Below are positions 799-53,061 of a stretch of DNA of 64,000 nt, in pieces. The stretch lies in the IMG/VR virus record IMGVR_UViG_3300045988_133024, positions 1-64,000 of that record; one strand, 5' to 3'. Below the pieces are notes generated by a model. The model was not told the DNA's origin. It worked only from the letters and a program-made list of their open reading frames with translations, and searched no databases. This DNA comes from a virus. The first letter of the stretch is position 1; every line of letters starts with the position of its first letter. Position numbers and translations under genes: made by a program.

Positions 799-1761
799 AT
801 GGCAGCAACACAGTTTGAAGTTATTAAAACAGTAAAAAATAATAACACAGAAAAATCCGAAACAAAGATCAAAAGACGCAAGGACGGAAACCCTAAATGG
901 ACTCGATCTAACAAACAGAAAGGTGTATCATCTTTAGTTTATCCGATTAAGAATCCAGAGAAGTTTAAGGCTTTCTGTGATTATTTTTTTGAGCAGATTG
1001 ATTCTGCGTATACGGATTATAAGAAATATGTTGCTGCTAGAAACTATCTTCTAGTATGCATTGGAAACAATACAGCCTATCGTATTTCTGATATCGTCAG
1101 ACTTAAATGGTGTGATTTGTTAGGAGATAATGATCGTGTGAGAAAGCAAGAGAAAAAAACAAAGAAGTTCAGAACTGTATTTTTCAATGATATTGTAAAA
1201 AAGGCAGTAGAGATTTTCTTTGATGCAATTGCAGGAACAAGGTATGATATTAGAGTTGATAGAGAAATTCCAATGGATAATTATATTTTCTGCACATGTA
1301 AGTCAGGATCAGATGGACATATGACAGAAGCTAATGCCTTAGATTTTGTGAAAAAGGGAGCAAGGGCAGTAGGTATTGAAGATAACGTAGGAACTCATAC
1401 ATTGCGAAAAAACTTTGTCTACTGGACTCTTGTAACACACAAGAATGATCAGAACGTACTGTATGAGTTAATGCGATTGATGAACCATAGCAACCCAGCT
1501 ATGACATTTTTGTACGCAACAATTACCGAGGAAGAAACACATGAGTTATTCTGCGACATTTCTGATACGTACAAGGATATTATTAAAGGCATTTTTGATG
1601 GAAAGAATAAGAATCTTGTGACAGCAAGTAAAGACTACATCTTAGATTTGATTAAATGTGCTTATGATATGGGGCAGCAAGATGCAAATGAACAAGATTA
1701 TAACGTGCATATGGATAATTTAGAAACATTGGAAGAATTATTGAATGAGATTATTAAGTAA
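799..1761 (+). CDS. tyrosine recombinase / phage integrase family
   Basis: Box I 'AYRISDIVRLKWCDL' carries the Arg. 'GTHTLRKNF' matches the HxxR motif. 'MNHSNPAMTFLYATI' carries the His and the catalytic Tyr. RBS 'aggagaggtg'. Confidence 0.65.
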   Translation: MAATQFEVIKTVKNNNTEKSETKIKRRKDGNPKWTRSNKQKGVSSLVYPIKNPEKFKAFCDYFFEQIDSAYTDYKKYVAARNYLLVCIGNNTAYRISDIVRLKWCDLLGDNDRVRKQEKKTKKFRTVFFNDIVKKAVEIFFDAIAGTRYDIRVDREIPMDNYIFCTCKSGSDGHMTEANALDFVKKGARAVGIEDNVGTHTLRKNFVYWTLVTHKNDQNVLYELMRLMNHSNPAMTFLYATITEEETHELFCDISDTYKDIIKGIFDGKNKNLVTASKDYILDLIKCAYDMGQQDANEQDYNVHMDNLETLEELLNEIIK

Positions 1762-3517: not shown

Positions 3518-4546
3518 ATGAATAATAAAGAATTTATAGAAAATTATATAAAGACAAAAGTTCCAGAGTCAGCACGACCAGGATGGGAATGGATGTTGGA
3601 TTCTGATCTTGCAAGAGAGGACGAACAGGGCTTAACATACGCTCCAGGAACAATCCAAGAGGCTATGTTAAGGGCAGGAAAAGGGACTGCAAGAAATCGA
3701 ACCATGAATTCTATTGTGAAAAGATATAAACAACTTGTAGATTTATACACCTACGCAAATGAATGTAACTATATAAAATATAATCCATTCAAAAGCGATA
3801 AATTCATTGATCTACAAATCGTTGTGGATATTTATTTTTCCAATCAGGTCAACGTGAACTATGTGTCGAAAGAACAATTGAACGAACTTCTGATAGCTTT
3901 AGCTCTGCGTAAAAAGCCTTTGGATAAAAAAACAAGGTTGCAAATCGTACTATATCTAGTAAGTTTGTATAACGGTATTGATGCTGACGCCTTAAAGGAC
4001 TTAAAGTTTTCTGAAATCGACGAAGAGAAACAAACGATCTCAGGGAAACCAATTGGTAAAAACTTTTTAGATATGATTGCATACTATAAAAACGCAATGG
4101 GTGAGAATATTTATGAAGATCATATAATTATTCCATCATACAAATGTGATGATTTGCAGGAATATAAAAAAGCACAAGACCGTATTGGCTACAATATCAG
4201 ATTTTTGTTTAATACGCTTGGCAAATCGTTAAATTATTATAAAATGTCAAAAAATGACGTTATTAATTCTGGGTTTGTACAGTATTTAAAATCAAGAATG
4301 AGCATTGAATCAATATCTGAACTGTATTATGTTAAACCAAAGGATGGTGTAGCGAGATCATTAAATGCTAAGATGTTCAATGATATTGCGATTGATTTTT
4401 ATTACAAATACTATAAAACATATAGATTGGATGACGTACCGTATAATTTTAGTAGGAGACAAACGGTAATTGGGAAAACGATCAGTTATCTATATCAAGA
4501 TGAAGATTACAAGAATTATCGTGTGCATCAAATCATGACAGAGTAA
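3518..4546 (+). CDS. hypothetical protein
   Basis: 342-aa ORF. RBS 'ggag' 8 nt upstream. Confidence 0.55.
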   Translation: MNNKEFIENYIKTKVPESARPGWEWMLDSDLAREDEQGLTYAPGTIQEAMLRAGKGTARNRTMNSIVKRYKQLVDLYTYANECNYIKYNPFKSDKFIDLQIVVDIYFSNQVNVNYVSKEQLNELLIALALRKKPLDKKTRLQIVLYLVSLYNGIDADALKDLKFSEIDEEKQTISGKPIGKNFLDMIAYYKNAMGENIYEDHIIIPSYKCDDLQEYKKAQDRIGYNIRFLFNTLGKSLNYYKMSKNDVINSGFVQYLKSRMSIESISELYYVKPKDGVARSLNAKMFNDIAIDFYYKYYKTYRLDDVPYNFSRRQTVIGKTISYLYQDEDYKNYRVHQIMTE

Positions 4547-5774: not shown

Positions 5775-5839
5775 AGTTTCTTCCTTATTATATATGATGA
5801 CTCGCACAGGCATTTGTGCAAAATTAAAATGTAAATATT

Positions 5840-11379: not shown

Positions 11380-12216
11380 ATGATTACTATTGGTGGAGTA
11401 CCAGTTGTTCCAGAATCTTTTCCAGATGGAACACAGAAAATTGGTTTGCCGTTAGGAGCAATGAGATCACGGATTGCAGTAAATAAATTTGTATCAATTG
11501 AATGGCTGTATGAATCAGATAAAGAATTATTTTCGCTATATTGTATTTCAAAAAGTATTCGAGAATATTTCCCACATTTATCACAGTGTTTAGTGATGCC
11601 GTATATTCCGAATGCAAGATTTGACAGGGTTAAAGATCATAACGAATGTTTTACATTAAAATATTTTGCAGAAATCATCAATGAATTAAATTTTAGAAAT
11701 GTCATCGTAACAGATCCTCACTCAGACGTTTCTAAAGCATTGATTGATCACCTACAATATATACCAATTAAACTATATATTTCTAAGGTTTGCAATAAAG
11801 TCCTTAAAGCAGAGCCATCAAGAAATCTCGTAATTTATTTTCCAGATAGCGGATCACTAAAAAGATATTCTGAATTTGTATCAGATGATTATCCGATTGT
11901 CTATGGAATTAAAAATCGGGATTGGAAGACAGGAGAAATTCTTGGTATTGAGATTCATGGAGATACAGATAAATTAGATGAGAATACAGCAATTCTAATG
12001 ATTGATGATATTTGTAGTAAGGGTGGCACATTTTATTATGGATCAAAAGAATTAAACAAATACGGTTGTAAAGATATGTATTTATATGTTACTCACTGTG
12101 AAAACACAATTCTTGATGGCGAATTATTAAAGGAAGATAGTTTGTTTAAAAAAGTGTATACGACACGTAGTATTTTTACAAAAGAACATGAGAAAGTTGA
12201 GGTGTTAGATTTATGA
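11380..12216 (+). CDS. ribose-phosphate pyrophosphokinase (Prs)-like protein; candidate ADPR-pyrophosphate synthetase of a NARP1-type NAD+ reconstitution pair
   Basis: PRPP/phosphoribosyltransferase-type loop 'AILMIDDICSKGGTF'. A Prs-like 'VIVTDPHS' motif. The stop overlaps the start of the downstream NAMPT-like gene. Confidence 0.55.
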   Translation: MITIGGVPVVPESFPDGTQKIGLPLGAMRSRIAVNKFVSIEWLYESDKELFSLYCISKSIREYFPHLSQCLVMPYIPNARFDRVKDHNECFTLKYFAEIINELNFRNVIVTDPHSDVSKALIDHLQYIPIKLYISKVCNKVLKAEPSRNLVIYFPDSGSLKRYSEFVSDDYPIVYGIKNRDWKTGEILGIEIHGDTDKLDENTAILMIDDICSKGGTFYYGSKELNKYGCKDMYLYVTHCENTILDGELLKEDSLFKKVYTTRSIFTKEHEKVEVLDL

Positions 12217-13679
12217 AACAGACAAATCCAATGTTATTAATTGATTTTTATAAAGCAGTTCATGCTGAAATGTTACCAAAAGGTATTACAAAATCTGTTT
12301 CTTATTTTACTCCACGTATGAGCAGGGTAAAACGATGGAACGAAGTCGTGATGTTTGGGTTACAGGGATTCATTAAAGAATATCTGATTGATTATTTTAA
12401 TAAGAATTTCTTTGATCTTAAAGGTGGAGCAGTTACTTCTTACAAGAGGATTATGGACGCAGCTCTTGGAGAAAATACTTATGGATTACAGAAAATCGCA
12501 GATCTTTATGAGCTTGGTTATCTTCCGATTGAGATTAAAGCACTTCCCGAAGGAACTTTAGCACCAATGCATGTGCCGATGTTTAGTATTGAGAATACTC
12601 ACAAAGATTTTGCATGGTTACCACAGGCATTAGAAAGTTTAATTTCCGCAGAAATGTGGCATCCGATGATTGCTGCGACTGTCGGGCATACATATAGACA
12701 GATTGTTAATAAGTTTTATGAAATGACTTGTGATGATGATATTGTAAAAGCTAAAGCATTAGGGGCTTTCGATTTTCGTGGCGAAGAATGTTTACAGTCT
12801 GCGGTTAAAGCAGGAGTAGGATGGTGTTTATCATTCTTAAATACAGCTACGGTTCCAACAATTCCATATTTAGAGAGAAATTATAACTGCGATTGTACGA
12901 AAGAACCAGTTGCTTTTGGTAGTCCGTCTACTGAGCATGCGGTCATGTGTAGTAATTATGCGATTGACGGAGATGAAGAGACTCTGATTAAAAGATTACT
13001 TACAGAGATTTATCCAAACACAAGCTTCTCAGCAGTATTGGATTCTTATGATTATTGGAATGTTGTAGAGAATATTCTTCCAAAACTCAAGAACGAGATT
13101 ATGAATCACAATGGATGTTTTCTTGTCAGAGGAGACTCAGGAGATTGTGTAGATGTAGTAACCAGAACAGTATTTAAGTTATGGGAAGAGTTTGGGGGAA
13201 CGACAAATACAAAAGGGTATAAAGTATTAGATCCTCATGTAAAAGCAATTTATGGAGATTCAATTACAATACAGAGGTGTGAGCAGATTTATGACATCTT
13301 AGAGAAAAATGGATTCGCAGCAAGTAATGTTGCACTTGGCGTAGGATCATTCTCATTCCAGTGTATCGAAGAAGATGGAGTTTTAAAACCATTTACAAGA
13401 GATACATTTAGCAGTTGTATTAAAGCAACGTATTGTGAGATTGATGGCAAACCATATCCAATTTTCAAGAATCCAAAAGATGGCGGATTTAAGAAATCTC
13501 AGAGAGGTTTATGTTATGTCTATAAAGGATCAGACGGTAAATTGACATTTAAAGATGGATATACTTCAGAAAATCTTCCAATGAACAACCTGCTTGAGAC
13601 AGTATTTAGAGATGGCAAGTTGGTAAAAGAGCAGTCATTACAGGAGATTAGAAGAGTGTTAAACGAAGGAGAATTTTAA
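12213..13679 (+). CDS. nicotinamide phosphoribosyltransferase (NAMPT/NadV)-family protein; candidate Namat of a NARP1-type pair
   Basis: N-terminal 'LLIDFYKAVH' matches the NAMPT 'D-x-YK-x-H' signature. The length (488 aa) fits the family. Start overlaps the upstream Prs-like gene. Confidence 0.6.
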   Translation: MKQTNPMLLIDFYKAVHAEMLPKGITKSVSYFTPRMSRVKRWNEVVMFGLQGFIKEYLIDYFNKNFFDLKGGAVTSYKRIMDAALGENTYGLQKIADLYELGYLPIEIKALPEGTLAPMHVPMFSIENTHKDFAWLPQALESLISAEMWHPMIAATVGHTYRQIVNKFYEMTCDDDIVKAKALGAFDFRGEECLQSAVKAGVGWCLSFLNTATVPTIPYLERNYNCDCTKEPVAFGSPSTEHAVMCSNYAIDGDEETLIKRLLTEIYPNTSFSAVLDSYDYWNVVENILPKLKNEIMNHNGCFLVRGDSGDCVDVVTRTVFKLWEEFGGTTNTKGYKVLDPHVKAIYGDSITIQRCEQIYDILEKNGFAASNVALGVGSFSFQCIEEDGVLKPFTRDTFSSCIKATYCEIDGKPYPIFKNPKDGGFKKSQRGLCYVYKGSDGKLTFKDGYTSENLPMNNLLETVFRDGKLVKEQSLQEIRRVLNEGEF

Positions 13680-14191
13680 TGATTAAAATTATTGAAGGCG
13701 ATTTGTTTGATACAAATGCGAAATTTATTTGTCATCAAGTAAATTGTGCAGGAAAAATGGGATCTGGGGTAGCGTTACAGGTACGACAAAAATATCCGCA
13801 TGTATATAAAGAATATGAAAAAGTTGCTTCGGAAGATATGTTAGGGGAAGTACAGATCATACCAGTGAATTCAAAATTTATTGGACATGAACCAGGAGAT
13901 ATTTGGTGTGGTATGAAAGTAAAAGGGTTCAGGGAAACACAATGGATTTGTAATTTATTTGCTCAAAAGAGTTATGGATATGACGGCAAGCAGTATACTT
14001 CAAATGAAGCTTTAAGACAGTGCTTTAAAAAACTTGCAGGAATGGTGCATGAGAAAAACAATAACTTTGGACAAACAATCGCTATGCCATATAAAATTGG
14101 ATGTTGTCGTGGAGGATCTGATTGGAGTGATGTTGCCAATATTATCGAAGAAGAATTTAAAGATTGTAATGTAGAATTATGGAGGTTATAG
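13679..14191 (+). CDS. macro domain protein (ADP-ribose binding/processing)
   Basis: 'IEGDLFDT...ICHQVNCAGKMGSGVALQV' is a macro-domain signature. Confidence 0.6.
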   Translation: MIKIIEGDLFDTNAKFICHQVNCAGKMGSGVALQVRQKYPHVYKEYEKVASEDMLGEVQIIPVNSKFIGHEPGDIWCGMKVKGFRETQWICNLFAQKSYGYDGKQYTSNEALRQCFKKLAGMVHEKNNNFGQTIAMPYKIGCCRGGSDWSDVANIIEEEFKDCNVELWRL

Positions 14192-14194
14192 AAC

Positions 14195-14965
14195 ATGAGT
14201 TTTAATGCAAAAGAAACCAAAGACAGATTAGTGCAGTGGATTAGAGATTGGTTTGAAATTAATGGTAAAGGATGCAATGCCATTGTAGGAATTTCAGGAG
14301 GCAAGGATTCATCAGTTGTCGCAGCCTTATGCGTAGAAGCACTTGGCAAGAATCGAGTAATCGGTGTCATGATGCCACAGGGCGTACAGTCAGATATTGA
14401 GTATTCTCAGATGTTATGTAATCACTTAGGTATTGAAAATTATACAGTTAATATCTACGAGCCATGTTTAAGTATCAAGCATGAAGTATCAAGCGTATTA
14501 AATGGTAAATGGAGTAAGCAGAGTGCAACAAACTTACCTGCTCGTATCCGTATGGCTACATTATATGCTTTCGCACAGAGTATGAATGGTAGAGTGGCAA
14601 ATACTTGTAACTTATCTGAAGACTGGGTTGGATATGCGACCAGATATGGAGATTCAGCTGGAGATTTTAGTCCATTAAGTGATCTGACTGTGACAGAAGT
14701 TAAAGCAATTGGTAAAGTTCTGGGACTTCCAACAGAGTTAATCGAAAAAACTCCTACTGATGGGTTATGTGGCAAGACAGATGAAGATAATCTTGGATTT
14801 ACATACGAAGTGTTGGATGAATATATCAGAACAGGTGAATGCAAGGATAAAGTAGTGAGACAGATCATTGATGAAATGCATGAGAAGAATGTATTTAAAC
14901 TTGCTCCAATGCCTAAATTTATATCTGGTATGTGGATCGAGGCAGGAATGGAGTTGGATGATTAA
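14195..14965 (+). CDS. nadE: NH3-dependent NAD+ synthetase (NadE)-like PP-loop ATPase
   Basis: PP-loop 'GISGGKDSSV'. Size and architecture fit NadE. Confidence 0.65.
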   Translation: MSFNAKETKDRLVQWIRDWFEINGKGCNAIVGISGGKDSSVVAALCVEALGKNRVIGVMMPQGVQSDIEYSQMLCNHLGIENYTVNIYEPCLSIKHEVSSVLNGKWSKQSATNLPARIRMATLYAFAQSMNGRVANTCNLSEDWVGYATRYGDSAGDFSPLSDLTVTEVKAIGKVLGLPTELIEKTPTDGLCGKTDEDNLGFTYEVLDEYIRTGECKDKVVRQIIDEMHEKNVFKLAPMPKFISGMWIEAGMELDD

Positions 14966-16840: not shown

Positions 16841-17575
16841 ATGACAATTATTATTATTTGTGTAATTGTAGCGATTATCGCATATTTACAATTTACTAAA
16901 AATGGAAAGCAGATTAAAAATGTAGCATCTGGAACAGTTACAGAGAAAATCAAAGAAAATGCAATGACCCCAGAGGGAGCAAGAGCCAGATATAATACTG
17001 CAATTAAAGAGAAACAGGACTTTTATAAGAAAACAATGGGTACATACACAACGGTGGCTGGTAGATTAGCAACAATGGAAGATGATCTCAAAGAAACTAA
17101 AGAAGAAATTTCTAAAACCGAGGCAATGATCAACCAGTACATTGATAACAATGATGACAAAAAAGCAATGTATTATGCTCAAAAATTAGCCACGCTAAAG
17201 GCACAGAAATCAGTGTACGAAAAGAAAATCCCAGAGTTGCAATCCACAAAAGATAAGCAAGAAGAAATTAAAAACCAAGCATATGATCAGCTCATTAAGT
17301 TAAAAGGCGAAAAAGATACTGTGGTTCTCCAGATGGAAGCGGATCAGCAGATTGCAGAATTGCAGAAAAATTTAGATCAATACAATAGTTCTAATGCTGC
17401 TCAGGAAGGATTGGAAGAGGTTCGAGAAGGAGCAAAGAAGCTTAGCGAACAAGCCAAAGGCGTTACCATTGCGTATGAATCTAGTGCAGAAACATTGGAT
17501 TATCATATGGAACAAGAAGAGCGACAGCAGGAAGCTAAAGCTATATTAGATCAGATGAAAAACGCTCGCAAATAG
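16841..17575 (+). CDS. membrane-anchored coiled-coil protein
   Basis: N-terminal TM 'MTIIIICVIVAIIAYLQF' followed by an extended coiled coil. Sits immediately after the flotillin gene. Confidence 0.5.
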   Translation: MTIIIICVIVAIIAYLQFTKNGKQIKNVASGTVTEKIKENAMTPEGARARYNTAIKEKQDFYKKTMGTYTTVAGRLATMEDDLKETKEEISKTEAMINQYIDNNDDKKAMYYAQKLATLKAQKSVYEKKIPELQSTKDKQEEIKNQAYDQLIKLKGEKDTVVLQMEADQQIAELQKNLDQYNSSNAAQEGLEEVREGAKKLSEQAKGVTIAYESSAETLDYHMEQEERQQEAKAILDQMKNARK

Positions 17576-17645
17576 CAAATAAATTTATCTATAAAAATTA
17601 ATTTCACAAACATAAAACTGGCATTTGAAACACAGTGCCAGTCAT

Positions 17646-17784
17646 GGAAACATAGCTCAGTTGGTAGAGCAGGCAAATACATAAATATTCATTTTTCTAC
17701 CTCCCTATAAGTATTTTGTTTATTTACATTTTAATTTTCATCACATATAAATTGCCGACACAGGTTCGATCCCTGTTGTTTCCA
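17646..17784 (+). tRNA. tRNA gene interrupted by a ~68-nt insertion in the anticodon loop; anticodon and isotype unresolved
   Basis: Acceptor stem ggaaaca/tgtttcc. D-arm gctc-agttggta-gagc. Anticodon stem ggcaa (17672-76) pairs with ttgcc (17752-56), and ~75 nt lie between them. T-arm acagg-ttcgatc-cctgt. Discriminator A. Confidence 0.5.
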
Positions 17785-17788
17785 TTAA

Positions 17789-17823
17789 AAAAGACCTTAA
17801 CCTAAATGGTCAAAGTCTTTTTG
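17789..17823. terminator. bidirectional hairpin terminator between the tRNA and the convergent minus-strand regulator gene
   Basis: 'aaaagacc-ttaacctaaat-ggtc...gtcttttt' has stem gacc/ggtc (or aaaagac/gtctttt) with a T-run on both strands. Confidence 0.4.
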
Positions 17824-17824
17824 A

Positions 17825-18028
17825 TTAATCGTTTGGTATGACCTCAATAACATCTTCAACTTTACAATCAAGATATAAGCAAATTTTATCGATGTTTTCG
17901 AGACTGATATACTGATTCTTTGCCATCTTGGCAATTGTACCAGACCCCATATTTAAAGCGGTTCGTAAATCAGATTTTGTCATACCCTTTTTCGCTAAAG
18001 TTACGAAAAGCGGTTTATAACTTATCAT
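17825..18028 (-). CDS. XRE-family helix-turn-helix transcriptional regulator (Cro/CI-like)
   Basis: 'LAKKGMTKSDLRTALNMGSGTIAKMAKNQYISLENIDKICLYLDCKVEDV' is a canonical HTH_XRE. The start is trimmed to the ATG at 18028, preceded by 'ggaggt'. It is the only supported minus-strand gene. Confidence 0.7.
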   Translation of the reverse strand: MISYKPLFVTLAKKGMTKSDLRTALNMGSGTIAKMAKNQYISLENIDKICLYLDCKVEDVIEVIPND

Positions 18029-18082
18029 ATGATATACCTCCACATCTATATTATAGCATATTACATACAGGATGTAAAATAA

Positions 18083-18104
18083 AATATTCAAGAAGTTGAA
18101 TATT
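18083..18104. promoter_or_regulatory. operator-like perfect inverted repeat aatattcaa-gaag-ttgaatatt (9-bp arms); a second inverted repeat ttacat-acagg-atgtaa lies at 18061..18077
   Basis: Read directly. Positioned between the divergent regulator gene and the -35 element of the rightward promoter. Confidence 0.5.
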
Positions 18105-18109
18105 TTGTA

Positions 18110-18138
18110 TTGACACTATCTGCAAGAAGTGGTATATT
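18110..18138 (+). promoter_or_regulatory. sigma-70-like promoter: -35 ttgaca (18110-15), 17-nt spacer, extended -10 'tggtatatt' (18130-38)
   Basis: Consensus -35 and the same 'tggtatatt' extended -10 as the promoter at 2969. Confidence 0.55.
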
Positions 18139-23076: not shown

Positions 23077-24705
23077 ATGGCTAAGAAACAAAATAAAAAT
23101 ACGATGCAGATCAATAGAAAAATTACTTTAATTCCAGTTGCAAGTGACAATGATGGTTGGAAGAAGAAGATGAATACATATCTTGAAAAATTTTATTTTG
23201 ACAAGAAAATTAAAGCCAAAGAAAGACAAATCAAAAATACGAGTAAACCAGAAAGAAAAGAAGAATACAAACAGCAGCTTACAGAATATAAAAAGCAACA
23301 AGAACAGTTCTTAAATGGTGAGCTTGAAGATTATACAAAGCAGATGGTTATGAGTTATACATATGATTTGGTAAGAGACTGTATGGAAAGTGAAGCAAGA
23401 CAGAAGAATTTCATAATGTCTTATATGTTCTCAGAGATGATCAGAGAAAAGGTCTGCTACTTAAAAAACAAGAAAGAAAAGGAAAAATGGGTAAATGACA
23501 ATATCAATGTTGCATTTAGAGTTAAAGGATCACCAAAGGGAAGTATCTTTGACGATGTTGAGATTTATAGTCCATTAAGAGCATTGAGTATTCAGGGATA
23601 TACTCAGGAATTAAAGGGGAGAGTTAAGAAATTCGCCACTGATGGTGGTTTAGACGGGAAGTTGGCAGTCGATAATTATAAATTAGATTCGCCATTTCAT
23701 ATGTCAAAGCAAGGATTTGATATTGTTCATGAATATGAAGACTTGACAGAGCTTAAAAAGAATATTGGTAAATCAAGTTGTGAAATATATGTGAATCTTG
23801 GTAACGGTGGCGTTCCTACATTCGCAAGATTTCAATTAGATTTTGGACACAAAGGCAATCGAGAAGAGTTAATTTCTACAATTACAAAAGTATTTACTGG
23901 CGAATATAAAGTATGTGGAAGTTCAATTCAGATTAATAAAAAGAATAAGATTATATTAAATCTTGGACTTGAAATTCCAAAAAGACTTACTGAATTAGAT
24001 GAAAACACGGTAGTTGGAGTCGATCTTGGGTTAGCAGTTCCAGCTGTATGCTCTTTAAATAATAATCAGTATAAGAAAGAGTATATTGGGGACGGAGAAG
24101 CTTTTGTAAAACAGCGAGGCAAAATTCAAAAAGAAAAACAGAGACTACAAAAAGCATTGAAACTTTCAAAGGGTGGACATGGAAGAAAGAGAAAAATGTT
24201 AGCCTTAGAAAGATTCAAAGAAAGAGAAGCAAATTTTGTAAATACTTATTGTCATAGAATCAGTAAAAAAGTTGTTGAATATGCACTTAAGAATAATGCC
24301 AAATATATCAATATTGAGAATTTAAAAGGATATGATTCTAGTAAATTTATTCTGAGAAATTGGAGTTTCTACCAGCTTCAGCAAGATATTACATATAAAG
24401 CAGAAAGATATGGTATTGAAGTAAGAAAAATCAATCCTGCATTTACTTCTCAAGTATGTAGTTTCTGTGGGTATTGGGAATCTGGACAGAGAATAAATCA
24501 GAAAACTTTTAAATGCGGAAATCCAAATTGTAAGAGTCATAATCTCAAATTTTTCAATGCAGATTATAATGCTGCAAGAAATATTTCAATGTCAACATTG
24601 TTTACAAGTGACAATTATAAGTTTGGAAAAGAATCTTTGCAAAAAGCAGCAGATTATTACGGAATTGATTTAGAAATTGATTCTGAAGACCAAGAAATTG
24701 CTTAA
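23077..24705 (+). CDS. Cas12f/TnpB-like RNA-guided nuclease candidate (split RuvC domain plus zinc finger)
   Basis: RuvC-I 'VVGVDLGLAVPAV'. RuvC-II 'AKYINIENLKGY'. Zinc finger 'CSFCGYW..CGNPNCKSH'. RuvC-III 'NADYNAARNI'. At 542 aa with the D/E/D spacing, it resembles miniature type V effectors. No tnpA or cas1/cas2 is adjacent. Confidence 0.75.
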   Translation: MAKKQNKNTMQINRKITLIPVASDNDGWKKKMNTYLEKFYFDKKIKAKERQIKNTSKPERKEEYKQQLTEYKKQQEQFLNGELEDYTKQMVMSYTYDLVRDCMESEARQKNFIMSYMFSEMIREKVCYLKNKKEKEKWVNDNINVAFRVKGSPKGSIFDDVEIYSPLRALSIQGYTQELKGRVKKFATDGGLDGKLAVDNYKLDSPFHMSKQGFDIVHEYEDLTELKKNIGKSSCEIYVNLGNGGVPTFARFQLDFGHKGNREELISTITKVFTGEYKVCGSSIQINKKNKIILNLGLEIPKRLTELDENTVVGVDLGLAVPAVCSLNNNQYKKEYIGDGEAFVKQRGKIQKEKQRLQKALKLSKGGHGRKRKMLALERFKEREANFVNTYCHRISKKVVEYALKNNAKYINIENLKGYDSSKFILRNWSFYQLQQDITYKAERYGIEVRKINPAFTSQVCSFCGYWESGQRINQKTFKCGNPNCKSHNLKFFNADYNAARNISMSTLFTSDNYKFGKESLQKAADYYGIDLEIDSEDQEIA

Positions 24706-27605: not shown

Positions 27606-28122
27606 TGAACAGCGAAGGCTGATTGAAGATAATTACTCTTTGATTTGGCATTTACATGAAAAATATTTTACAAAGTTTACAGATTTTGATACATATATGG
27701 ATCTTGGTCGTATGGCAATTTGTAAAGCAGCATTAAAATGGGATGAGTCAAAAGGAACTTTTGGTACTTTCTTTCGGTGGGTATTGCAAACAGAGGTAAA
27801 TCAATATTATGCAAAATGGCATAGACCAACAGAAAAAATGAATAGAAATGCAGAATCGTTAGATACGCCATTGGCAGGATACGAACCAGAAGATGATATT
27901 ACAATCGGAACAACACTGATGAGTAAAGATAATGTAGAGGATGAGGTGCTTACAAAGGTACATTTTCAAAATGAGTTTGATAAATTGGCACCGAGAAATA
28001 AAAAAATTATCACGTTAAAGCAGAAAGGTTTAACACAAAGACAAATTGCAAGTCAGCTTGGAATCACTCATCAGTGGGTTAGTCAAAATATTGTACAGTT
28101 TAAGAAAGCATTATGTGGATAA
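27589..28122 (+). CDS. sigma-70 family (ECF-like) sigma factor
   Basis: Region-2-like N-terminus 'LNDEQRRLIEDNYSLIWHLHEKYF'. Region-4 HTH 'LTQRQIASQLGITHQWVSQNIVQFKKAL'. A paralogue lies at 33349..33891. Confidence 0.55.
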   Translation: MKKLNDEQRRLIEDNYSLIWHLHEKYFTKFTDFDTYMDLGRMAICKAALKWDESKGTFGTFFRWVLQTEVNQYYAKWHRPTEKMNRNAESLDTPLAGYEPEDDITIGTTLMSKDNVEDEVLTKVHFQNEFDKLAPRNKKIITLKQKGLTQRQIASQLGITHQWVSQNIVQFKKALCG

Positions 28123-28135
28123 AAGAGGTGAGACC

Positions 28136-28957
28136 ATGACAATTGAAGAAGTAAAGGATTACATAAACTCGTCTACAGAGTATGACTTTTTGCGAGATTA
28201 TCCGCACAAAATCGCTTTTCTCACACTAGGTGGAAGTTATGCCTACGGAACAAATACAGAAGATTCTGATATTGATTTACGTGGTGTTTTCCTTAGTGAT
28301 AAAAGAGAGATTTTGTTGAATAATAATCAGAACAATCTTGAGAAGACCGATGACCATAAAGACATTGATACCGTGTTACATTCGCATATTAAGATGGTTA
28401 ATATGCTTGCTAAGGGCAATCCTACATTTTTAGAGTTGCTATACTTTGCACCAGACCGCTATCTGTATGTATCCGATATTGGTATGGAGTTGATCAAAAA
28501 TAGAGATATGTTCTTATCTAAGAGAGTTTGTCATGCATATAAAGGATATATTTGTGATTGCCTAGAACAAGCATACGTGAGATGTTCTAAATCAGACGAC
28601 ATTCAAAAGAAAACAAAATTTGCCAATAAATCAATGATACATGCTGTTCGTTTGTTGCTCCAAGTGATTCAATTACTACAATGTGGAACTATGTGTGGAA
28701 CAATTGAAGAAATAGGAAAAGACCTTATAGATATTAAGATGGGGTACAATACTTTGTGTGAAAAGAGACATCTTCCAGATGGCACTGAATGTACGGATTA
28801 TCGTCCAAACGAATCTTATAATGTGTTTACTAACAGACTATTGTCTGAATTTGAGTATGGGTACAAACATACAACCTTGCCAGACGAACCAGACTGGGAT
28901 CGTATCAATAACTTCTTGATGACAACAAATGAACGAATTGTGAGAGGAATGGTGTAA
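28136..28957 (+). CDS. Pol-beta-superfamily nucleotidyltransferase
   Basis: 'FLTLGGSYAYGTNTEDSDIDLRGVF' matches the NTase G[GS]x(9-13)DxD motif. Start trimmed to the ATG preceded by 'agaggtg'. Confidence 0.5.
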   Translation: MTIEEVKDYINSSTEYDFLRDYPHKIAFLTLGGSYAYGTNTEDSDIDLRGVFLSDKREILLNNNQNNLEKTDDHKDIDTVLHSHIKMVNMLAKGNPTFLELLYFAPDRYLYVSDIGMELIKNRDMFLSKRVCHAYKGYICDCLEQAYVRCSKSDDIQKKTKFANKSMIHAVRLLLQVIQLLQCGTMCGTIEEIGKDLIDIKMGYNTLCEKRHLPDGTECTDYRPNESYNVFTNRLLSEFEYGYKHTTLPDEPDWDRINNFLMTTNERIVRGMV

Positions 28958-52236: not shown

Positions 52237-53061
52237 ATGGCTTTAATTGGAGCGATTCTAGGAGATATTTGCGGTTCTCAATATGAGTTCCGCAGACCTC
52301 ATAATTTAGATTGGAAGAACTGTGAATTGTTTACAGATAAATGTAAATACACAGATGATACAGTTCTTAGTATTGCAACAGGTATGTGGTTGTTAGATGA
52401 AACCAATAAAGAACCTTGGGAGTTCTACTTAGAATATGGCAAGAAATATCCTGGTATGGGATATGGTGAAATGTTTGAAGACTGGTTGTACGATGATGGA
52501 AATCGTGTTAATGAAAGCTTTGGCAATGGATGTGCCATGAGGATTTCACCTATTACAATGTATTTTAATGGATTTGTTGATCGTCCAGACGTATCGAATT
52601 ATTACATAGATTTAGCACAATGGACATGTGAGAAAACTCATCGTCATGTGGAATCTTACAAAGGTGCATCGATTGTAACAGGCTGTTCTTTGATGGCGCT
52701 ATGGGGTAAATCAAAAGAAGAAATTTATCAATATGCATTAAAAAGTTATCCATCTCACCAGTATACATATGGCATTGATCGACCACTCGATGATTATAGA
52801 AAGAATTATGTTTGGTCAGCAACAGTTCAAGATAGTGTACCTGTGGCAATCAGATGCTTTTTAGAGAGTGAAGATTATGAATCGTTTTTAAGAAACGTAT
52901 TGTCTTTGCCATGTGATACAGACACAATTGCTGCTATTGGCGGTGGCATTGCAGAGGATTTCTATAGAAAAACACTTGATAATTCAAATGATCTTTTAGA
53001 AAGATATCTTCCGAAAGAATTATTAGATGATGTGAGTAAAATCTACAATGAAATGCCATAA
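52237..53061 (+). CDS. ADP-ribosylglycohydrolase (ARH/DraG family)
   Basis: N-terminal 'MALIGAILGDICGSQYEF' matches the ARH signature. 274 aa. Confidence 0.6.
   Translation: MALIGAILGDICGSQYEFRRPHNLDWKNCELFTDKCKYTDDTVLSIATGMWLLDETNKEPWEFYLEYGKKYPGMGYGEMFEDWLYDDGNRVNESFGNGCAMRISPITMYFNGFVDRPDVSNYYIDLAQWTCEKTHRHVESYKGASIVTGCSLMALWGKSKEEIYQYALKSYPSHQYTYGIDRPLDDYRKNYVWSATVQDSVPVAIRCFLESEDYESFLRNVLSLPCDTDTIAAIGGGIAEDFYRKTLDNSNDLLERYLPKELLDDVSKIYNEMP

What the first reader, a model, noticed from the sequence alone, without database searches (positions are those of the whole stretch)
17646..17784. tRNA gene split by a ~68-nt insertion in the anticodon loop
Every canonical tRNA element is present and base-pairs:
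- Acceptor ggaaaca/tgtttcc.
- D-arm gctc-agttggta-gagc.
- T-arm acagg-ttcgatc-cctgt.
- Anticodon stem ggcaa...ttgcc.

The two halves of the anticodon stem are separated by ~75 nt of AT-rich sequence. That is far too short for a group I intron, and bulge-helix-bulge introns are not expected in bacteria or phages.

Three options remain: a novel small intron or processing mechanism, a tRNA inactivated by an insertion, or an unusually long-looped tRNA-like RNA. None of the simple splice positions yields a standard anticodon (ACA or ATA), which itself needs explaining.
Basis: seen in the sequence. Interest (0 to 1): 0.6.

Follow-up and report, generated by a model that had tools for sequence, protein, structure and literature searches.

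The report
Phage tRNA-Val look-alike without anticodon
A ~160-kb gut phage carries a conserved copy of its Clostridium host's valine tRNA in which the whole anticodon arm has been swapped for a short stem and a 75-nt floppy AU-rich loop, so it is most likely a tRNA-shaped non-coding RNA (a mimic or decoy), not a tRNA waiting to be spliced.

Summary
Window 17646-17784 (+) scores 44.2 bits on Rfam tRNA, with 75 nt between the anticodon-stem halves GGCAA/TTGCC. The 'split tRNA' reading is only partly right.

- The acceptor stem, D-arm, T-arm and discriminator match Clostridium tRNA-Val(UAC) at 49 of 52 positions.
- The anticodon stem, variable loop (3 nt) and loop are unrelated to that tRNA. The arm was replaced, not interrupted.
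- There is no group I/II intron, ribozyme or bulge-helix-bulge signature. No splice gives a usable anticodon. No uninterrupted copy was found in viral contigs or species-representative genomes.
- The element with its long loop is present in 56 related phage contigs. It is the least variable stretch of its neighbourhood, and the loop alone is less variable than its flanks.
- All seven one-sided stem changes keep G·U pairs on the + strand.
- A distant phage clade has, at the syntenic spot, tRNA-like RNAs with no anticodon arm or an ~80-nt AT-rich replacement. They sit beside a 23S-rRNA-fragment mimic and a CCA-adding enzyme.

Best reading: a non-decoding tRNA-like RNA, processed like a tRNA. Its function (decoy, handle or scaffold) is inferred, not shown. 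It is a new variant of a known kind, of moderately high interest.

The parts
17646..17784 (+). Whole tRNA-like gene (139 nt): a tRNA-Val-type upper body with a replaced anticodon arm.
   Evidence: Rfam RF00005 at 44.2 bits. Present in 56 related contigs. The cloverleaf is recovered independently by RNAalifold.
17646..17671 (+). 5' upper body: acceptor 5' strand GGAAACA, TA, D-arm GCTC-AGTTGGTA-GAGC, A26.
   Evidence: 23 of 26 positions identical to Clostridium tRNA-Val(UAC). Nucleotide diversity is 0.008, the lowest in 2.7 kb.
17672..17676 (+). 5' strand of the replacement 'anticodon' stem (GGCAA).
   Evidence: Pairs with 17752-17756. It is unrelated to the host stem TCTGC. Variants GGTAA, TTGTC and TTGCT keep G·U pairs.
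17677..17751 (+). 75-nt AU-rich loop (63-75 nt in relatives). It is predicted to be unstructured. It begins (A)UAC and contains CUACCUCC at 17697-17704.
   Evidence: Unpaired in the MFE, centroid and alignment folds. Variable sites are 8/75, against 26% in the flanks (p = 0.002-0.004). Indels occur only in A/T runs.
17752..17759 (+). 3' strand of the replacement stem (TTGCC) plus the 3-nt variable loop GAC.
   Evidence: Read from the sequence. The host tRNA has GCAGA plus GGGTC here.
17759..17784 (+). 3' upper body: C48, T-arm ACAGG-TTCGATC-CCTGT, acceptor 3' strand TGTTTCC, discriminator A73. No CCA is encoded (TTA follows).
   Evidence: 26 of 26 positions identical to Clostridium tRNA-Val(UAC). 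Host genes encode CCA, whereas phage copies read CTA or TTA.
17617..17642 (.). Hairpin 3 nt upstream of the tRNA-like 5' end (ACTGGCA...TGCCAGT). On the minus strand it reads as a terminator. In many relatives its loop carries an extra ~70 nt.
   Evidence: Sequence. Relatives. Flagged as a terminator on the opposite strand in L001 and L007.
17788..17822 (.). Bidirectional terminator-like hairpin. It closes the tRNA-like gene (+) and the convergent XRE repressor gene (-).
   Evidence: Inverted repeat I2, 15-nt arms, flanked by an A-run and a T-run.

Best explanation
This is a phage gene for a non-decoding tRNA-like RNA that derives from, or is kept similar to, the Clostridium host's tRNA-Val(UAC).

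Shown by the analysis:
- The acceptor stem, D-arm, T-arm and discriminator are retained almost exactly. These are the parts that form the tRNA 'elbow' and acceptor end.
- The whole anticodon arm and variable loop have been replaced by an unrelated 5-6-bp stem, which carries a 63-75-nt single-stranded AU-rich loop.
- The gene is conserved with that loop in all relatives found.

Inferred from established tRNA biology:
- The RNA is transcribed at the end of a + strand operon.
- RNase P cuts it at G17646, and RNase Z cuts it after A17784, because no CCA is encoded.
- It then receives CCA and accumulates as a stable RNA of about 142 nt.
- It cannot read a codon. It is probably a poor ValRS substrate, since ValRS depends on A35/C36 in a normal loop.

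Most likely role (inference only): the tRNA-Val-like body serves as a mimic. It could be a decoy or sponge for a host factor that recognises the tRNA elbow or acceptor end, such as a tRNA-targeting defence nuclease or nucleotidyltransferase. Alternatively it could be a stabilising, processing-competent scaffold that displays the AU-rich loop.
For: 1. Real tRNA architecture: Rfam 44.2 bits. The alignment fold gives the cloverleaf with the loop unpaired.
2. Origin: 102 genome loci, nearly all Clostridium sensu stricto, carry tRNA-Val(UAC) with an identical 26-nt 3' part and 23/26 identity in the 5' part. The 21-nt middle is replaced by 87 unrelated nt. None of 521 host tRNAs has the GGCAA/TTGCC stem.
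3. Not an intron: in a sensitive scan only tRNA is significant among the 4227 Rfam families. There is no conserved BHB motif in 21 variants. The only ARAGORN splice gives 'ata'.
4. Always long-looped: 54 complete copies plus one copy split between two stored loci and one IS-interrupted copy. No uninterrupted copy turned up in IMG/VR or in GTDB species representatives.
5. Constraint: diversity is 0.008-0.026 in the element, against 0.05-0.15 in flanking genes. Variable sites are 18/139 against 62/235 intergenic (p = 0.0025) and 348/1347 coding (p = 0.0006). The loop alone has 8/75.
6. Strand-specific structure signal: 7 independent one-sided stem changes all give G·U pairs on the + strand, and they would be A·C on the other strand. 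Overall 99.5% of stem cells are paired.
7. Parallel in a distant clade, whose flanking protein is 38% identical. The same position holds a 57-nt tRNA-like RNA with no anticodon arm (L099), or the same RNA with ~80 nt of AT-rich sequence (L102, L103, L131). Its T-stem changes on both sides at 3 pairs. It lies next to a CCA-adding enzyme and a 23S GTPase-centre mimic.
8. The window encodes an RlaP RNA-repair nucleotidyltransferase, which points to conflict over tRNA integrity in this phage-host pair.
Against: - There is no expression, processing or binding data. Every step after 'conserved tRNA-shaped gene' is inferred.
- The clade is shallow (mean column identity 96%). There are no two-sided compensatory changes, and the shuffle control is uninformative. 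Seven of nine pair-preserving changes is only modest support: by my own binomial estimate, p is about 0.01-0.09 depending on transition bias.
- Taken alone, the arms are not significantly less variable than the flanks (p about 0.08-0.1).
- Low diversity could reflect a recent recombinational sweep or a DNA-level role.
- One relative tolerates an IscB element inside the gene, and one has two broken acceptor pairs (L029). So the RNA is not indispensable.
- The distant clade's tRNA-like RNAs are not sequence homologues, so the parallel is by position and shape only.
- No decoy target is known.
Confidence: 0.5

Rival explanations
1. Dead relic. A tRNA-Val gene captured from the host lost its anticodon arm through a rearrangement and is now a neutral pseudogene. 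It looks conserved only because the phages are close relatives, or because it hitch-hikes with the adjacent repressor and terminator region.
For: No anticodon can be reconstituted. There are no two-sided compensatory changes. One genome carries an IscB insertion in it and one has two broken acceptor pairs (L029). The low-diversity trough extends into the terminator and the 3' end of the XRE gene.
Against: It is less variable than the flanking coding and intergenic DNA, and the 'junk' loop is too. Seven of nine stem substitutions preserve pairing in a strand-specific way. The replacement stem is itself maintained through three independent G·U changes. All 56 contigs keep both halves intact, even where the neighbouring gene has diverged to 73% protein identity. 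A distant clade keeps anticodon-less tRNA-like RNAs at the same position with a covarying T-stem.
Confidence: 0.18
2. DNA-level site. The 26 nt identical to the 3' end of host tRNA-Val act as an attP core for the phage tyrosine integrase. Alternatively the region is a recombination or homing target, or a transcription-control region between convergent genes. The RNA shape would then be incidental.
For: There is exact 26-nt identity with host tRNA-Val. The window has a tyrosine integrase at 799-1761, and an XRE repressor sits next to the element. An IscB element has homed into the site in L021. Terminator-like hairpins flank the element on both strands.
Against: The integrase is 16 kb away, not adjacent. 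An attP needs only the 3' segment, yet the 5' half, the acceptor complementarity and the D-arm are the best-conserved part. No phage flank lies next to any of the 102 Clostridium tRNA-Val loci. No consistent promoter is called in the loop across variants. The G·U pattern is RNA-strand specific.
Confidence: 0.12
3. Genuine interrupted tRNA. The 63-75 nt are removed by an unknown host- or phage-encoded activity to give a functional tRNA.
For: All tRNA arms are intact and conserved. UAC, the Val anticodon triplet, directly follows the stem in every variant. Short unexplained insertions occur in other metagenomic tRNA genes.
Against: The stem that would carry the anticodon loop is not the tRNA-Val stem, and the variable loop has only 3 nt. 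There is no intron or ribozyme family and no BHB motif. Loop length and sequence vary at both putative junctions, including a 1-nt difference right after the stem. No splice yields Y-U-NNN-R-N with a standard anticodon. About 40 window ORFs were scanned, and none is a splicing endonuclease or RNA ligase.
Confidence: 0.06
4. Antisense regulator on a tRNA scaffold. The single-stranded loop base-pairs with an mRNA, for example through its anti-Shine-Dalgarno-like CUACCUCC plus anti-AUG segment, or through its 3' block. The tRNA body only provides processing and stability.
For: The loop is unstructured and constrained. 17687-17709 is the exact complement of an ideal SD-spacer-AUG sequence. An 18-nt block is perfectly complementary to window 5820-5837, upstream of an ORF.
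Against: The 5820-5837 site does not covary with loop indels. It is absent from two genomes and differs without compensation in one. It also lies in a promoter-like spacer, not in a predicted transcript. No other complementary site exists in the window at 3 or fewer mismatches. CUACCUCC carries three of the loop's few substitutions. Host targets could not be searched.
Confidence: 0.1

Closest known systems
Clostridium tRNA-Val(UAC), the apparent source or model
   Same: The acceptor stem, D-arm, T-arm, Levitt-pair C48 and discriminator A73 match at 49 of 52 positions. The 3' 26 nt are identical.
   Different: The anticodon stem, the 7-nt loop and the 5-nt variable loop are replaced by an unrelated stem, a 75-nt loop and a 3-nt variable loop. 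G5·U68 has become A5-U68. The 3' CCA is not encoded.
Intron-containing tRNA genes (bacterial group I introns in anticodon loops; archaeal/eukaryal bulge-helix-bulge introns)
   Same: There is extra sequence where the anticodon loop should be, flanked by a paired stem.
   Different: The extra sequence is far shorter than a group I intron and has no group I core. There is no BHB motif. The 'exons' do not rebuild an anticodon loop. The flanking stem is not that of the source tRNA.
YrlA / bacterial and phage Y RNA-like tRNA mimics (PMC4201824)
   Same: A non-coding RNA with tRNA-like D-arm, T-arm and acceptor stem but no decoding anticodon arm. Members occur in phages. The M. smegmatis member is cut by RNase P and receives CCA.
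   Different: YrlA is permuted: its ends lie in a Ro60-binding stem and its acceptor is a closed hairpin. It carries a GNCGAAN0-1G motif and is encoded next to Ro60/TROVE. Here the ends are tRNA-like, and no TROVE gene was found among the ORFs scanned.
tmRNA
   Same: The topology is shared: an acceptor stem and T-arm enclose a large insertion that replaces the anticodon arm.
   Different: There is no G3·U70 (the pair here is A3-U70). There are no pseudoknots and no conserved tag reading frame. ARAGORN's tmRNA search is negative, and the Rfam permuted-tmRNA hit is only 12.5 bits.
Engineered 'tRNA scaffold' RNAs and viral tRNA mimics (TYMV valine-accepting TLS, MHV68 tRNA-like TMERs). Recalled from memory, not tested.
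   Same: A tRNA body is used for processing, stability or host-factor mimicry while the anticodon region carries other sequence. TYMV also mimics tRNA-Val.
   Different: Those are synthetic constructs or belong to eukaryotic viruses. None is a DNA-phage gene copying its bacterial host's tRNA body.

Membership tests
tRNA (Rfam RF00005, functional decoder) | Cloverleaf with a 7-bp acceptor stem, a D-arm, a T-arm with a T-psi-C-type loop, and a score above the family threshold. | tested here: met
   44.2 bits against a gathering score of 29. The cloverleaf is recovered by RNAalifold.
tRNA (Rfam RF00005, functional decoder) | A 7-nt anticodon loop with U33, an anticodon and a purine at 37. A variable region of 4-5 nt or a long arm. 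| tested here: not met
   The loop is 63-75 nt. The variable loop is 3 nt. Default ARAGORN rejects it.
Group I intron in a tRNA anticodon loop | A structured P1-P9 catalytic core (Rfam Intron_gpI), usually more than 200 nt. | tested here: not met
   A sensitive cmscan of 17560-17840 at E up to 10 shows no intron or ribozyme family. The loop is unstructured.
Bulge-helix-bulge (archaeal/eukaryal) tRNA intron | Two 3-nt bulges separated by a 4-bp helix at the exon-intron junctions, conserved among homologues. | tested here: not met
   A scripted search of 21 variants finds no conserved BHB motif. There is one strict hit, in a single variant type.
Bulge-helix-bulge (archaeal/eukaryal) tRNA intron | A splicing endonuclease and an RNA ligase available in the system. 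| tested here: inconclusive
   None was found among about 40 window ORFs scanned with Pfam. The window is only 64 kb of a ~160-kb genome, and the host was not examined.
YrlA / Y RNA-like tRNA mimic | Encoded next to a Ro60/TROVE gene. Ro60-binding stem with a GNCGAAN0-1G motif. Permuted tRNA-like module with a closed acceptor hairpin (PMC4201824). | tested here: not met
   The ends are tRNA-like and not permuted. No Y RNA family hit in Rfam. No TROVE domain in the ORFs scanned.
tmRNA | G3·U70 alanine identity, a tag ORF with a resume codon, pseudoknots, and detection by tmRNA models. | tested here: not met
   The pair is A3-U70. ARAGORN -m finds nothing. The permuted-tmRNA hit is 12.5 bits against a threshold of 47. 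Loop reading frames are not conserved.
IS200/IS605 (IscB) element or its remnant | A left end with the omega-RNA hairpin GTGAACTACCCAC... and a right end with a matching hairpin ending ...TTTATAAA. | tested here: not met
   The ends are defined from 22 copies. The window's loop contains neither hairpin. In L021 the IS sits inside the pre-existing loop.
Phage attP in a tRNA gene | A segment identical to the 3' part of a host tRNA. | tested here: met
   26 of 26 nt identical to Clostridium tRNA-Val.
Phage attP in a tRNA gene | Adjacent to the integrase gene, with prophage junctions at that tRNA in host genomes. | tested here: not met
   The integrase at 799-1761 is 16 kb away. No phage flank lies beside any of the 102 host tRNA-Val loci. 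The sample is limited.

The most novel reading that the evidence does not exclude
Large phages of gut Firmicutes encode a class of 'beheaded' mimics of translation RNAs. Each keeps the protein-recognition surface of a host RNA and replaces the working end with unrelated sequence. Examples found here are a tRNA-Val upper body with no anticodon (this window), anticodon-less tRNA-like RNAs, and a 23S GTPase-centre/L11-site fragment with an insert (distant clade, next to a CCA-adding enzyme). On this reading they act as decoys against host immune effectors that sense or attack tRNA acceptor ends, tRNA elbows or the ribosomal stalk base, without disturbing decoding.
Probability: 0.2. Interest if true: 0.85.

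Novelty: new variant of a known kind. Interest (0 to 1): 0.62.

Why it matters
tRNAs are a major battleground between bacteria and phages. Hosts use anticodon nucleases, toxins that modify the acceptor end, and CRISPR effectors that cleave tRNA tails. Phages are known to answer with replacement tRNAs and repair enzymes.

A conserved phage gene that copies only the body of a host tRNA, and discards the part that reads codons, would be a different kind of answer: an RNA decoy or handle. If that is confirmed, it would define a new family of phage non-coding RNAs that standard tRNA finders either miss or mis-call as 'intron-containing tRNAs'. It would also be a natural counterpart of the engineered tRNA scaffold, and a bait for finding the host factor it binds.

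There is a practical point too. Such loci should not be annotated as tRNA-Tyr(ata) or counted as evidence for tRNA introns in phages.

Tried and rejected
1. Minus-strand small gene. The loop's complement reads GGAGG-N6-ATG, but the ORF behind it has different frames and lengths (9-46 aa) in 21 variants. Rejected.
2. Antisense pairing to window 5820-5837, an 18-nt perfect complement. There is no covariation with loop indels, the site is missing in two genomes, and there is one uncompensated change. Rejected.
3. Internal promoter. The TTTACA-17-TATAAA I saw by eye fails the scan's -10 rule. No site is called in the window or L007, and only a weak antisense one in L001. Not supported.
4. Remnant of the IscB IS found in L021. 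The IS ends, defined from 22 copies, are absent from the loop, and the IS lies inside the pre-existing loop. Rejected.
5. Group I/II intron, small ribozyme, BHB intron, tmRNA, Y RNA. All negative.
6. Uninterrupted homologue with the same stem. There were 0 hits in 185,579 species genomes. That pattern required the phage's own D-loop, so it was strict. The broader T-arm/acceptor scan found only host tRNA-Val and no GGCAA stem. In IMG/VR there are no normal phage tRNA-Val genes with this T-arm.
7. INPHARED phage records: no DNA match to the region or to 22 kb around it.
It returned mostly tandem tRNAs and unrelated intron-type tRNAs, with no further members of this clade.
9. A CCA-adding enzyme in the window: none by tblastn.
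10. Literature: no description of such an element was found.

Full report

- Acceptor: GGAAACA pairs with TGTTTCC.
- D-arm: GCTC-AGTTGGTA-GAGC.
- T-arm: ACAGG-TTCGATC-CCTGT.
- Discriminator: A.
- A 5-bp stem, GGCAA (17672-17676) with TTGCC (17752-17756), whose halves lie 75 nt apart.
- A variable loop of only 3 nt (GAC).

The Rfam tRNA model matches exactly these coordinates at 44.2 bits (gathering score 29, E = 4e-6 for the window), with 82 nt where 15 are expected. It is the only Rfam match in the 64-kb window, even at permissive thresholds. Default ARAGORN finds no tRNA. With intron search on, it calls a 68-nt 'intron' and the non-standard anticodon 'ata'.

**Context.** The window is part of a large phage.

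- Nearly all genes lie on the + strand.
- They include an NAD-salvage cluster, a macro domain, a flotillin-like protein, PolIII-alpha, a RecD-like helicase, an NAD-dependent ligase, an anaerobic ribonucleotide reductase, a sigma factor, a tyrosine integrase, a TnpB and an RlaP RNA-repair nucleotidyltransferase.
- The tRNA-like gene ends a + strand gene block. A hairpin (17617-17642) sits 3 nt upstream of it. A bidirectional terminator-like hairpin (17788-17822) follows, and then a convergent XRE-family repressor gene with its own strong promoter.
- Deposited phage genomes have no match.

**Relatives.** Exact-pattern scans of IMG/VR with the 5' half and with the 3' half found 57 loci from 56 contigs, mostly 140-166 kb.

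- 54 loci hold complete copies.
- One copy is split between two stored loci.
- One copy (L021) is interrupted by a mobile element.
- Counting the window's copy, there are 55 complete copies in 21 distinct sequences. Every one has the long loop, 63-75 nt, and they differ mainly by 1-6-nt indels in A/T runs.
- No copy with a normal loop was found.

**What the L021 interruption is.** In L021 the sequence after ...GGCAATAC is a HEARO/IscB omega-RNA (RF02033, 98.9 bits), followed by an IscB ORF with RRXRR and HNH domains. From 22 copies of this IS family, the left end is the omega-RNA hairpin and the right end finishes in ...TTTATAAA. The left flanks differ in every copy, as expected if they supply the guide. 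The IS therefore sits inside the pre-existing AT-rich loop, between GGCAATAC and (A/G)TAAAC. The loop contains neither IS end. So the loop is not an IS remnant. The site is simply one that a mobile element has used.

**Not an intron.**

- A sensitive Rfam scan of 17560-17840 (E up to 10) shows only tRNA. There is no group I or II intron and no small ribozyme.
- A scripted search finds no bulge-helix-bulge motif conserved among the 21 variants.
- The loop is predicted to be single-stranded in the MFE and centroid folds and in the alignment fold.
- No splicing endonuclease or RNA ligase appears among about 40 ORFs scanned.

**Origin.** A genome scan for an uninterrupted tRNA with the same stem found nothing.

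- A scan with only the T-arm plus 3' acceptor strand hit 102 loci, almost all in Clostridium sensu stricto: C. disporicum, tertium, saudiense, hominis, nigeriense, cuniculi, sartagoforme and others.
- The gene there is tRNA-Val(UAC): GGAAGCA TA GCTC AGCTGGGA GAGC A TCTGC CTTACAA GCAGA GGGTC ACAGG TTCGATC CCTGT TGTTTCC A.
- The phage element matches 23/26 positions of the 5' body and 26/26 of the 3' body. The host's 21-nt middle (anticodon stem-loop and most of the variable loop) is replaced by 87 unrelated nucleotides.
- None of 521 tRNAs in those host loci has a GGCAA/TTGCC stem.
- All the common 3' contexts of the host genes begin with CCA. The phage copies read CTA or TTA after A73.
- The arm was therefore replaced as a unit. 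This is not an insertion into a tRNA-Val loop.
- The triplet UAC, the Val anticodon, directly follows the stem in all variants. That may be a vestige or a coincidence.

**Is it maintained?** I aligned 40 neighbourhoods (38 distinct) that had been fetched through the flanking protein and not through the element itself.

| Region | Nucleotide diversity |
|---|---|
| 5' body | 0.008 |
| Loop | 0.026 |
| 3' body | 0.026 |
| Flanking genes | 0.05-0.15 |
| Adjacent intergenic DNA | 0.06-0.08 |

| Comparison | Variable sites | p |
|---|---|---|
| Element vs flanking intergenic | 18/139 vs 62/235 | 0.0025 |
| Element vs flanking coding | 348/1347 in coding | 0.0006 |
| Loop alone | 8/75 | 0.004 / 0.002 |
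| Arms alone | 10/64 | about 0.08-0.1 (not significant) |

- On the cloverleaf, 99.5% of stem cells pair across 20 distinct variants.
- Seven independent one-sided changes all give G·U pairs. Three of them are in the replacement stem. On the opposite strand they would be A·C, so this signal is specific to the + strand RNA.
- The only two broken pairs are both in one sequence (L029).
- There are no two-sided compensatory changes, and the shuffle control is uninformative because the clade is shallow.
- The case for selection is therefore consistent but moderate.

**A parallel in a distant clade.** The upstream 244-aa protein has 36-38%-identical homologues in other large phages.

- In the 213-217-kb clade, the position after that gene and a small membrane ORF holds a 57-nt RNA in L099. 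It has a 6-bp acceptor stem, a 3-bp D-like arm and a T-arm (CGAGG-TTCAAAT-CCTCG), and only 9 nt where the anticodon arm should be.
- L102, L103 and L131 carry the same RNA with about 80 nt of AT-rich sequence there, and a T-stem changed on both sides at three pairs (TAGGG/CCCTA).
- In L099 and L102 the next gene is a CCA-adding enzyme.
- L100 and L101 carry other tRNA-like pieces at the same spot.
- Just upstream in this clade lies a ~200-nt segment whose ends match the 23S rRNA GTPase-associated centre (H43/H44, the L11 site), with about 130 nt inserted.
- These RNAs are not sequence homologues of the window's element. They do show that anticodon-less tRNA-shaped genes are kept at this genomic position.

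**Explanation.** The best-supported reading is a non-decoding tRNA-like RNA modelled on host tRNA-Val.

- Shown: the architecture, the origin, the replacement of the arm, the absence of intron features, and the conservation including the loop.
- Inferred from general tRNA biology: 5' cleavage by RNase P, 3' cleavage by RNase Z (CCA-less precursor), CCA addition, stability, and no decoding.
- The role is a hypothesis. It could be a decoy or sponge for a factor that recognises the tRNA elbow or acceptor end, or a scaffold that displays the AU-rich loop.
- The role fits three things: the phage's RlaP repair enzyme, the CCA-adding enzyme in the distant clade, and published host systems that attack tRNA 3' ends (MenT/AbiEii toxins, Cas12a3; titles and abstracts seen).

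**Rivals.**

- A neutral relic. Supported by the IS-bearing copy and the L029 copy, and weakened by the conservation pattern.
- A DNA-level site such as attP. There is 26-nt identity to host tRNA-Val and an integrase in the window. But the integrase is 16 kb away, no prophage junction occurs in 102 host loci, and the 5' half is the best-conserved part.
- A genuinely spliced tRNA. No supporting feature was found.
- An antisense regulator. The one candidate target failed a covariation test, and the anti-SD-like motif carries three of the loop's few substitutions.

**Comparison with known systems.** It works most like the tRNA-mimic non-coding RNAs: YrlA/Y RNA-like RNAs (PMC4201824), the tRNA-like domain of tmRNA, viral tRNA-like structures, and the engineered tRNA scaffold. 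It meets the defining features of none of these families (see the membership table). I found no description of such an element in the searchable literature.

**Verdict.** This is a real, conserved, unusual phage gene. It is a new variant of the tRNA-mimic kind and is mis-called by intron-tolerant tRNA finders. Its function is unproven. Interest 0.62.

Noticed in passing
L021 1-1267 (minus strand); contig IMGVR_UViG_3300045988_108264: In one relative an IscB element (HEARO omega-RNA at 98.9 bits, plus an RRXRR/HNH ORF) is inserted into the tRNA-like gene right after GGCAATAC. Its guide would therefore be the tRNA-like 5' half (GTAGAGCAGGCAATAC). The contig starts inside iscB, so the right junction is unseen.
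   Followed up: yes
L100 3859-4052; L099 about 3850-4060; also L101-L103, L131: A ~200-nt conserved segment in a distant phage clade. Its two ends match the 23S rRNA GTPase-associated centre/L11 site (GGCUUAGAAGCAGCCAUCAUUUAAAGA ... GCGUAAUAGC), with a re-paired closing helix and about 130 nt inserted. It looks like a phage-encoded rRNA-fragment mimic. The Rfam LSU hit is 17.5 bits, E = 0.0024 in that small search.
   Followed up: partly
L099 4081-4137 and 4165-5400; L102 4061-4195; L100 about 4075-4230: Anticodon-less or long-insert tRNA-like RNAs with a covarying T-stem lie directly upstream of a phage CCA-adding enzyme (PolyA_pol head, RNA-binding and HD domains). L100 and L101 have different tRNA-like fragments at the same spot. 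Neither Rfam nor default ARAGORN detects any of them.
   Followed up: partly
window 28046-28957 (+): An RlaP-family nucleotidyltransferase (RNA-repair pathway Pol-beta NTase, 84 bits). No RNA ligase or kinase was recognised among its neighbours.
   Followed up: partly
window 23077-24705 (+): A 542-aa TnpB (OrfB_IS605 plus Cas12f1-like TNB domains). It is a second, separate IS200/IS605-type nuclease gene in this phage. Its omega-RNA and guide were not examined.
   Followed up: no
window 11380-14965 and 52237-53061 (+): An NAD+ salvage/synthesis cluster: a ribose-phosphate pyrophosphokinase-like ORF, a NadV/Nampt-like ORF, a macro domain and an NAD synthetase-like ORF. An ADP-ribosylglycohydrolase lies elsewhere in the window. 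These are probably counter-defence genes against NAD depletion or ADP-ribosylation. Only the macro and glycohydrolase domains were confirmed by Pfam.
   Followed up: partly
window 799-1761 (+): A tyrosine integrase (Phage_integrase, 60.6 bits) in a ~160-kb phage. No host-tRNA-like attP fragment lies near it.
   Followed up: partly
window 17617-17642; compare L021 1290-1390, L050, L055-L057: The hairpin just upstream of the tRNA-like gene is polymorphic. In many relatives its loop holds an extra ~70 nt that itself contains small hairpins (CACTATA...TATAGTG). This is a second case of 'stem with a long inserted loop' at this locus.
   Followed up: no
window 18050-18138: Divergent near-consensus promoters (11/12 matches each, both with TG) around a 16-nt palindrome (AAAATAAAATATTCAA/TTGAATATTTTGTATT), between the XRE gene and the next + strand genes. 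It looks like a repressor/operator switch. The window's loop contains one half-site-like 9-mer (AAATATTCA), but most relatives do not.
   Followed up: no
L376 1276-1397; L354 2131-2260; L318 7011-7147; L364 9913-10052: Unrelated metagenomic tRNA genes with 50-75-nt insertions. L376 (GC 0.37) has an AT-rich 57-nt insert between TCTGA and TCAGA, the same architecture as the window. L318 and L364 have about 60 nt inserted in the variable region. L323 and L341 look like archaeal or eukaryal intron-containing tRNAs.
   Followed up: no
L176 (Clostridiaceae bacterium AF10-41, JAQCTH010000011.1) around 2233-2330: A chimeric tRNA gene: a tRNA-Glu(UUC) 5' part joined within the anticodon loop to a tRNA-Val(UAC) 3' part. 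It is either a deletion between neighbouring tRNA genes in the array or an assembly artefact.
   Followed up: no
L029 (IMGVR_UViG_3300045988_101578) element 3' end: The only copy with broken stem pairs. Its acceptor 3' strand reads CGTGTCC instead of TGTTTCC, giving two mismatches. It is either a decaying copy or a sequence error.
   Followed up: no
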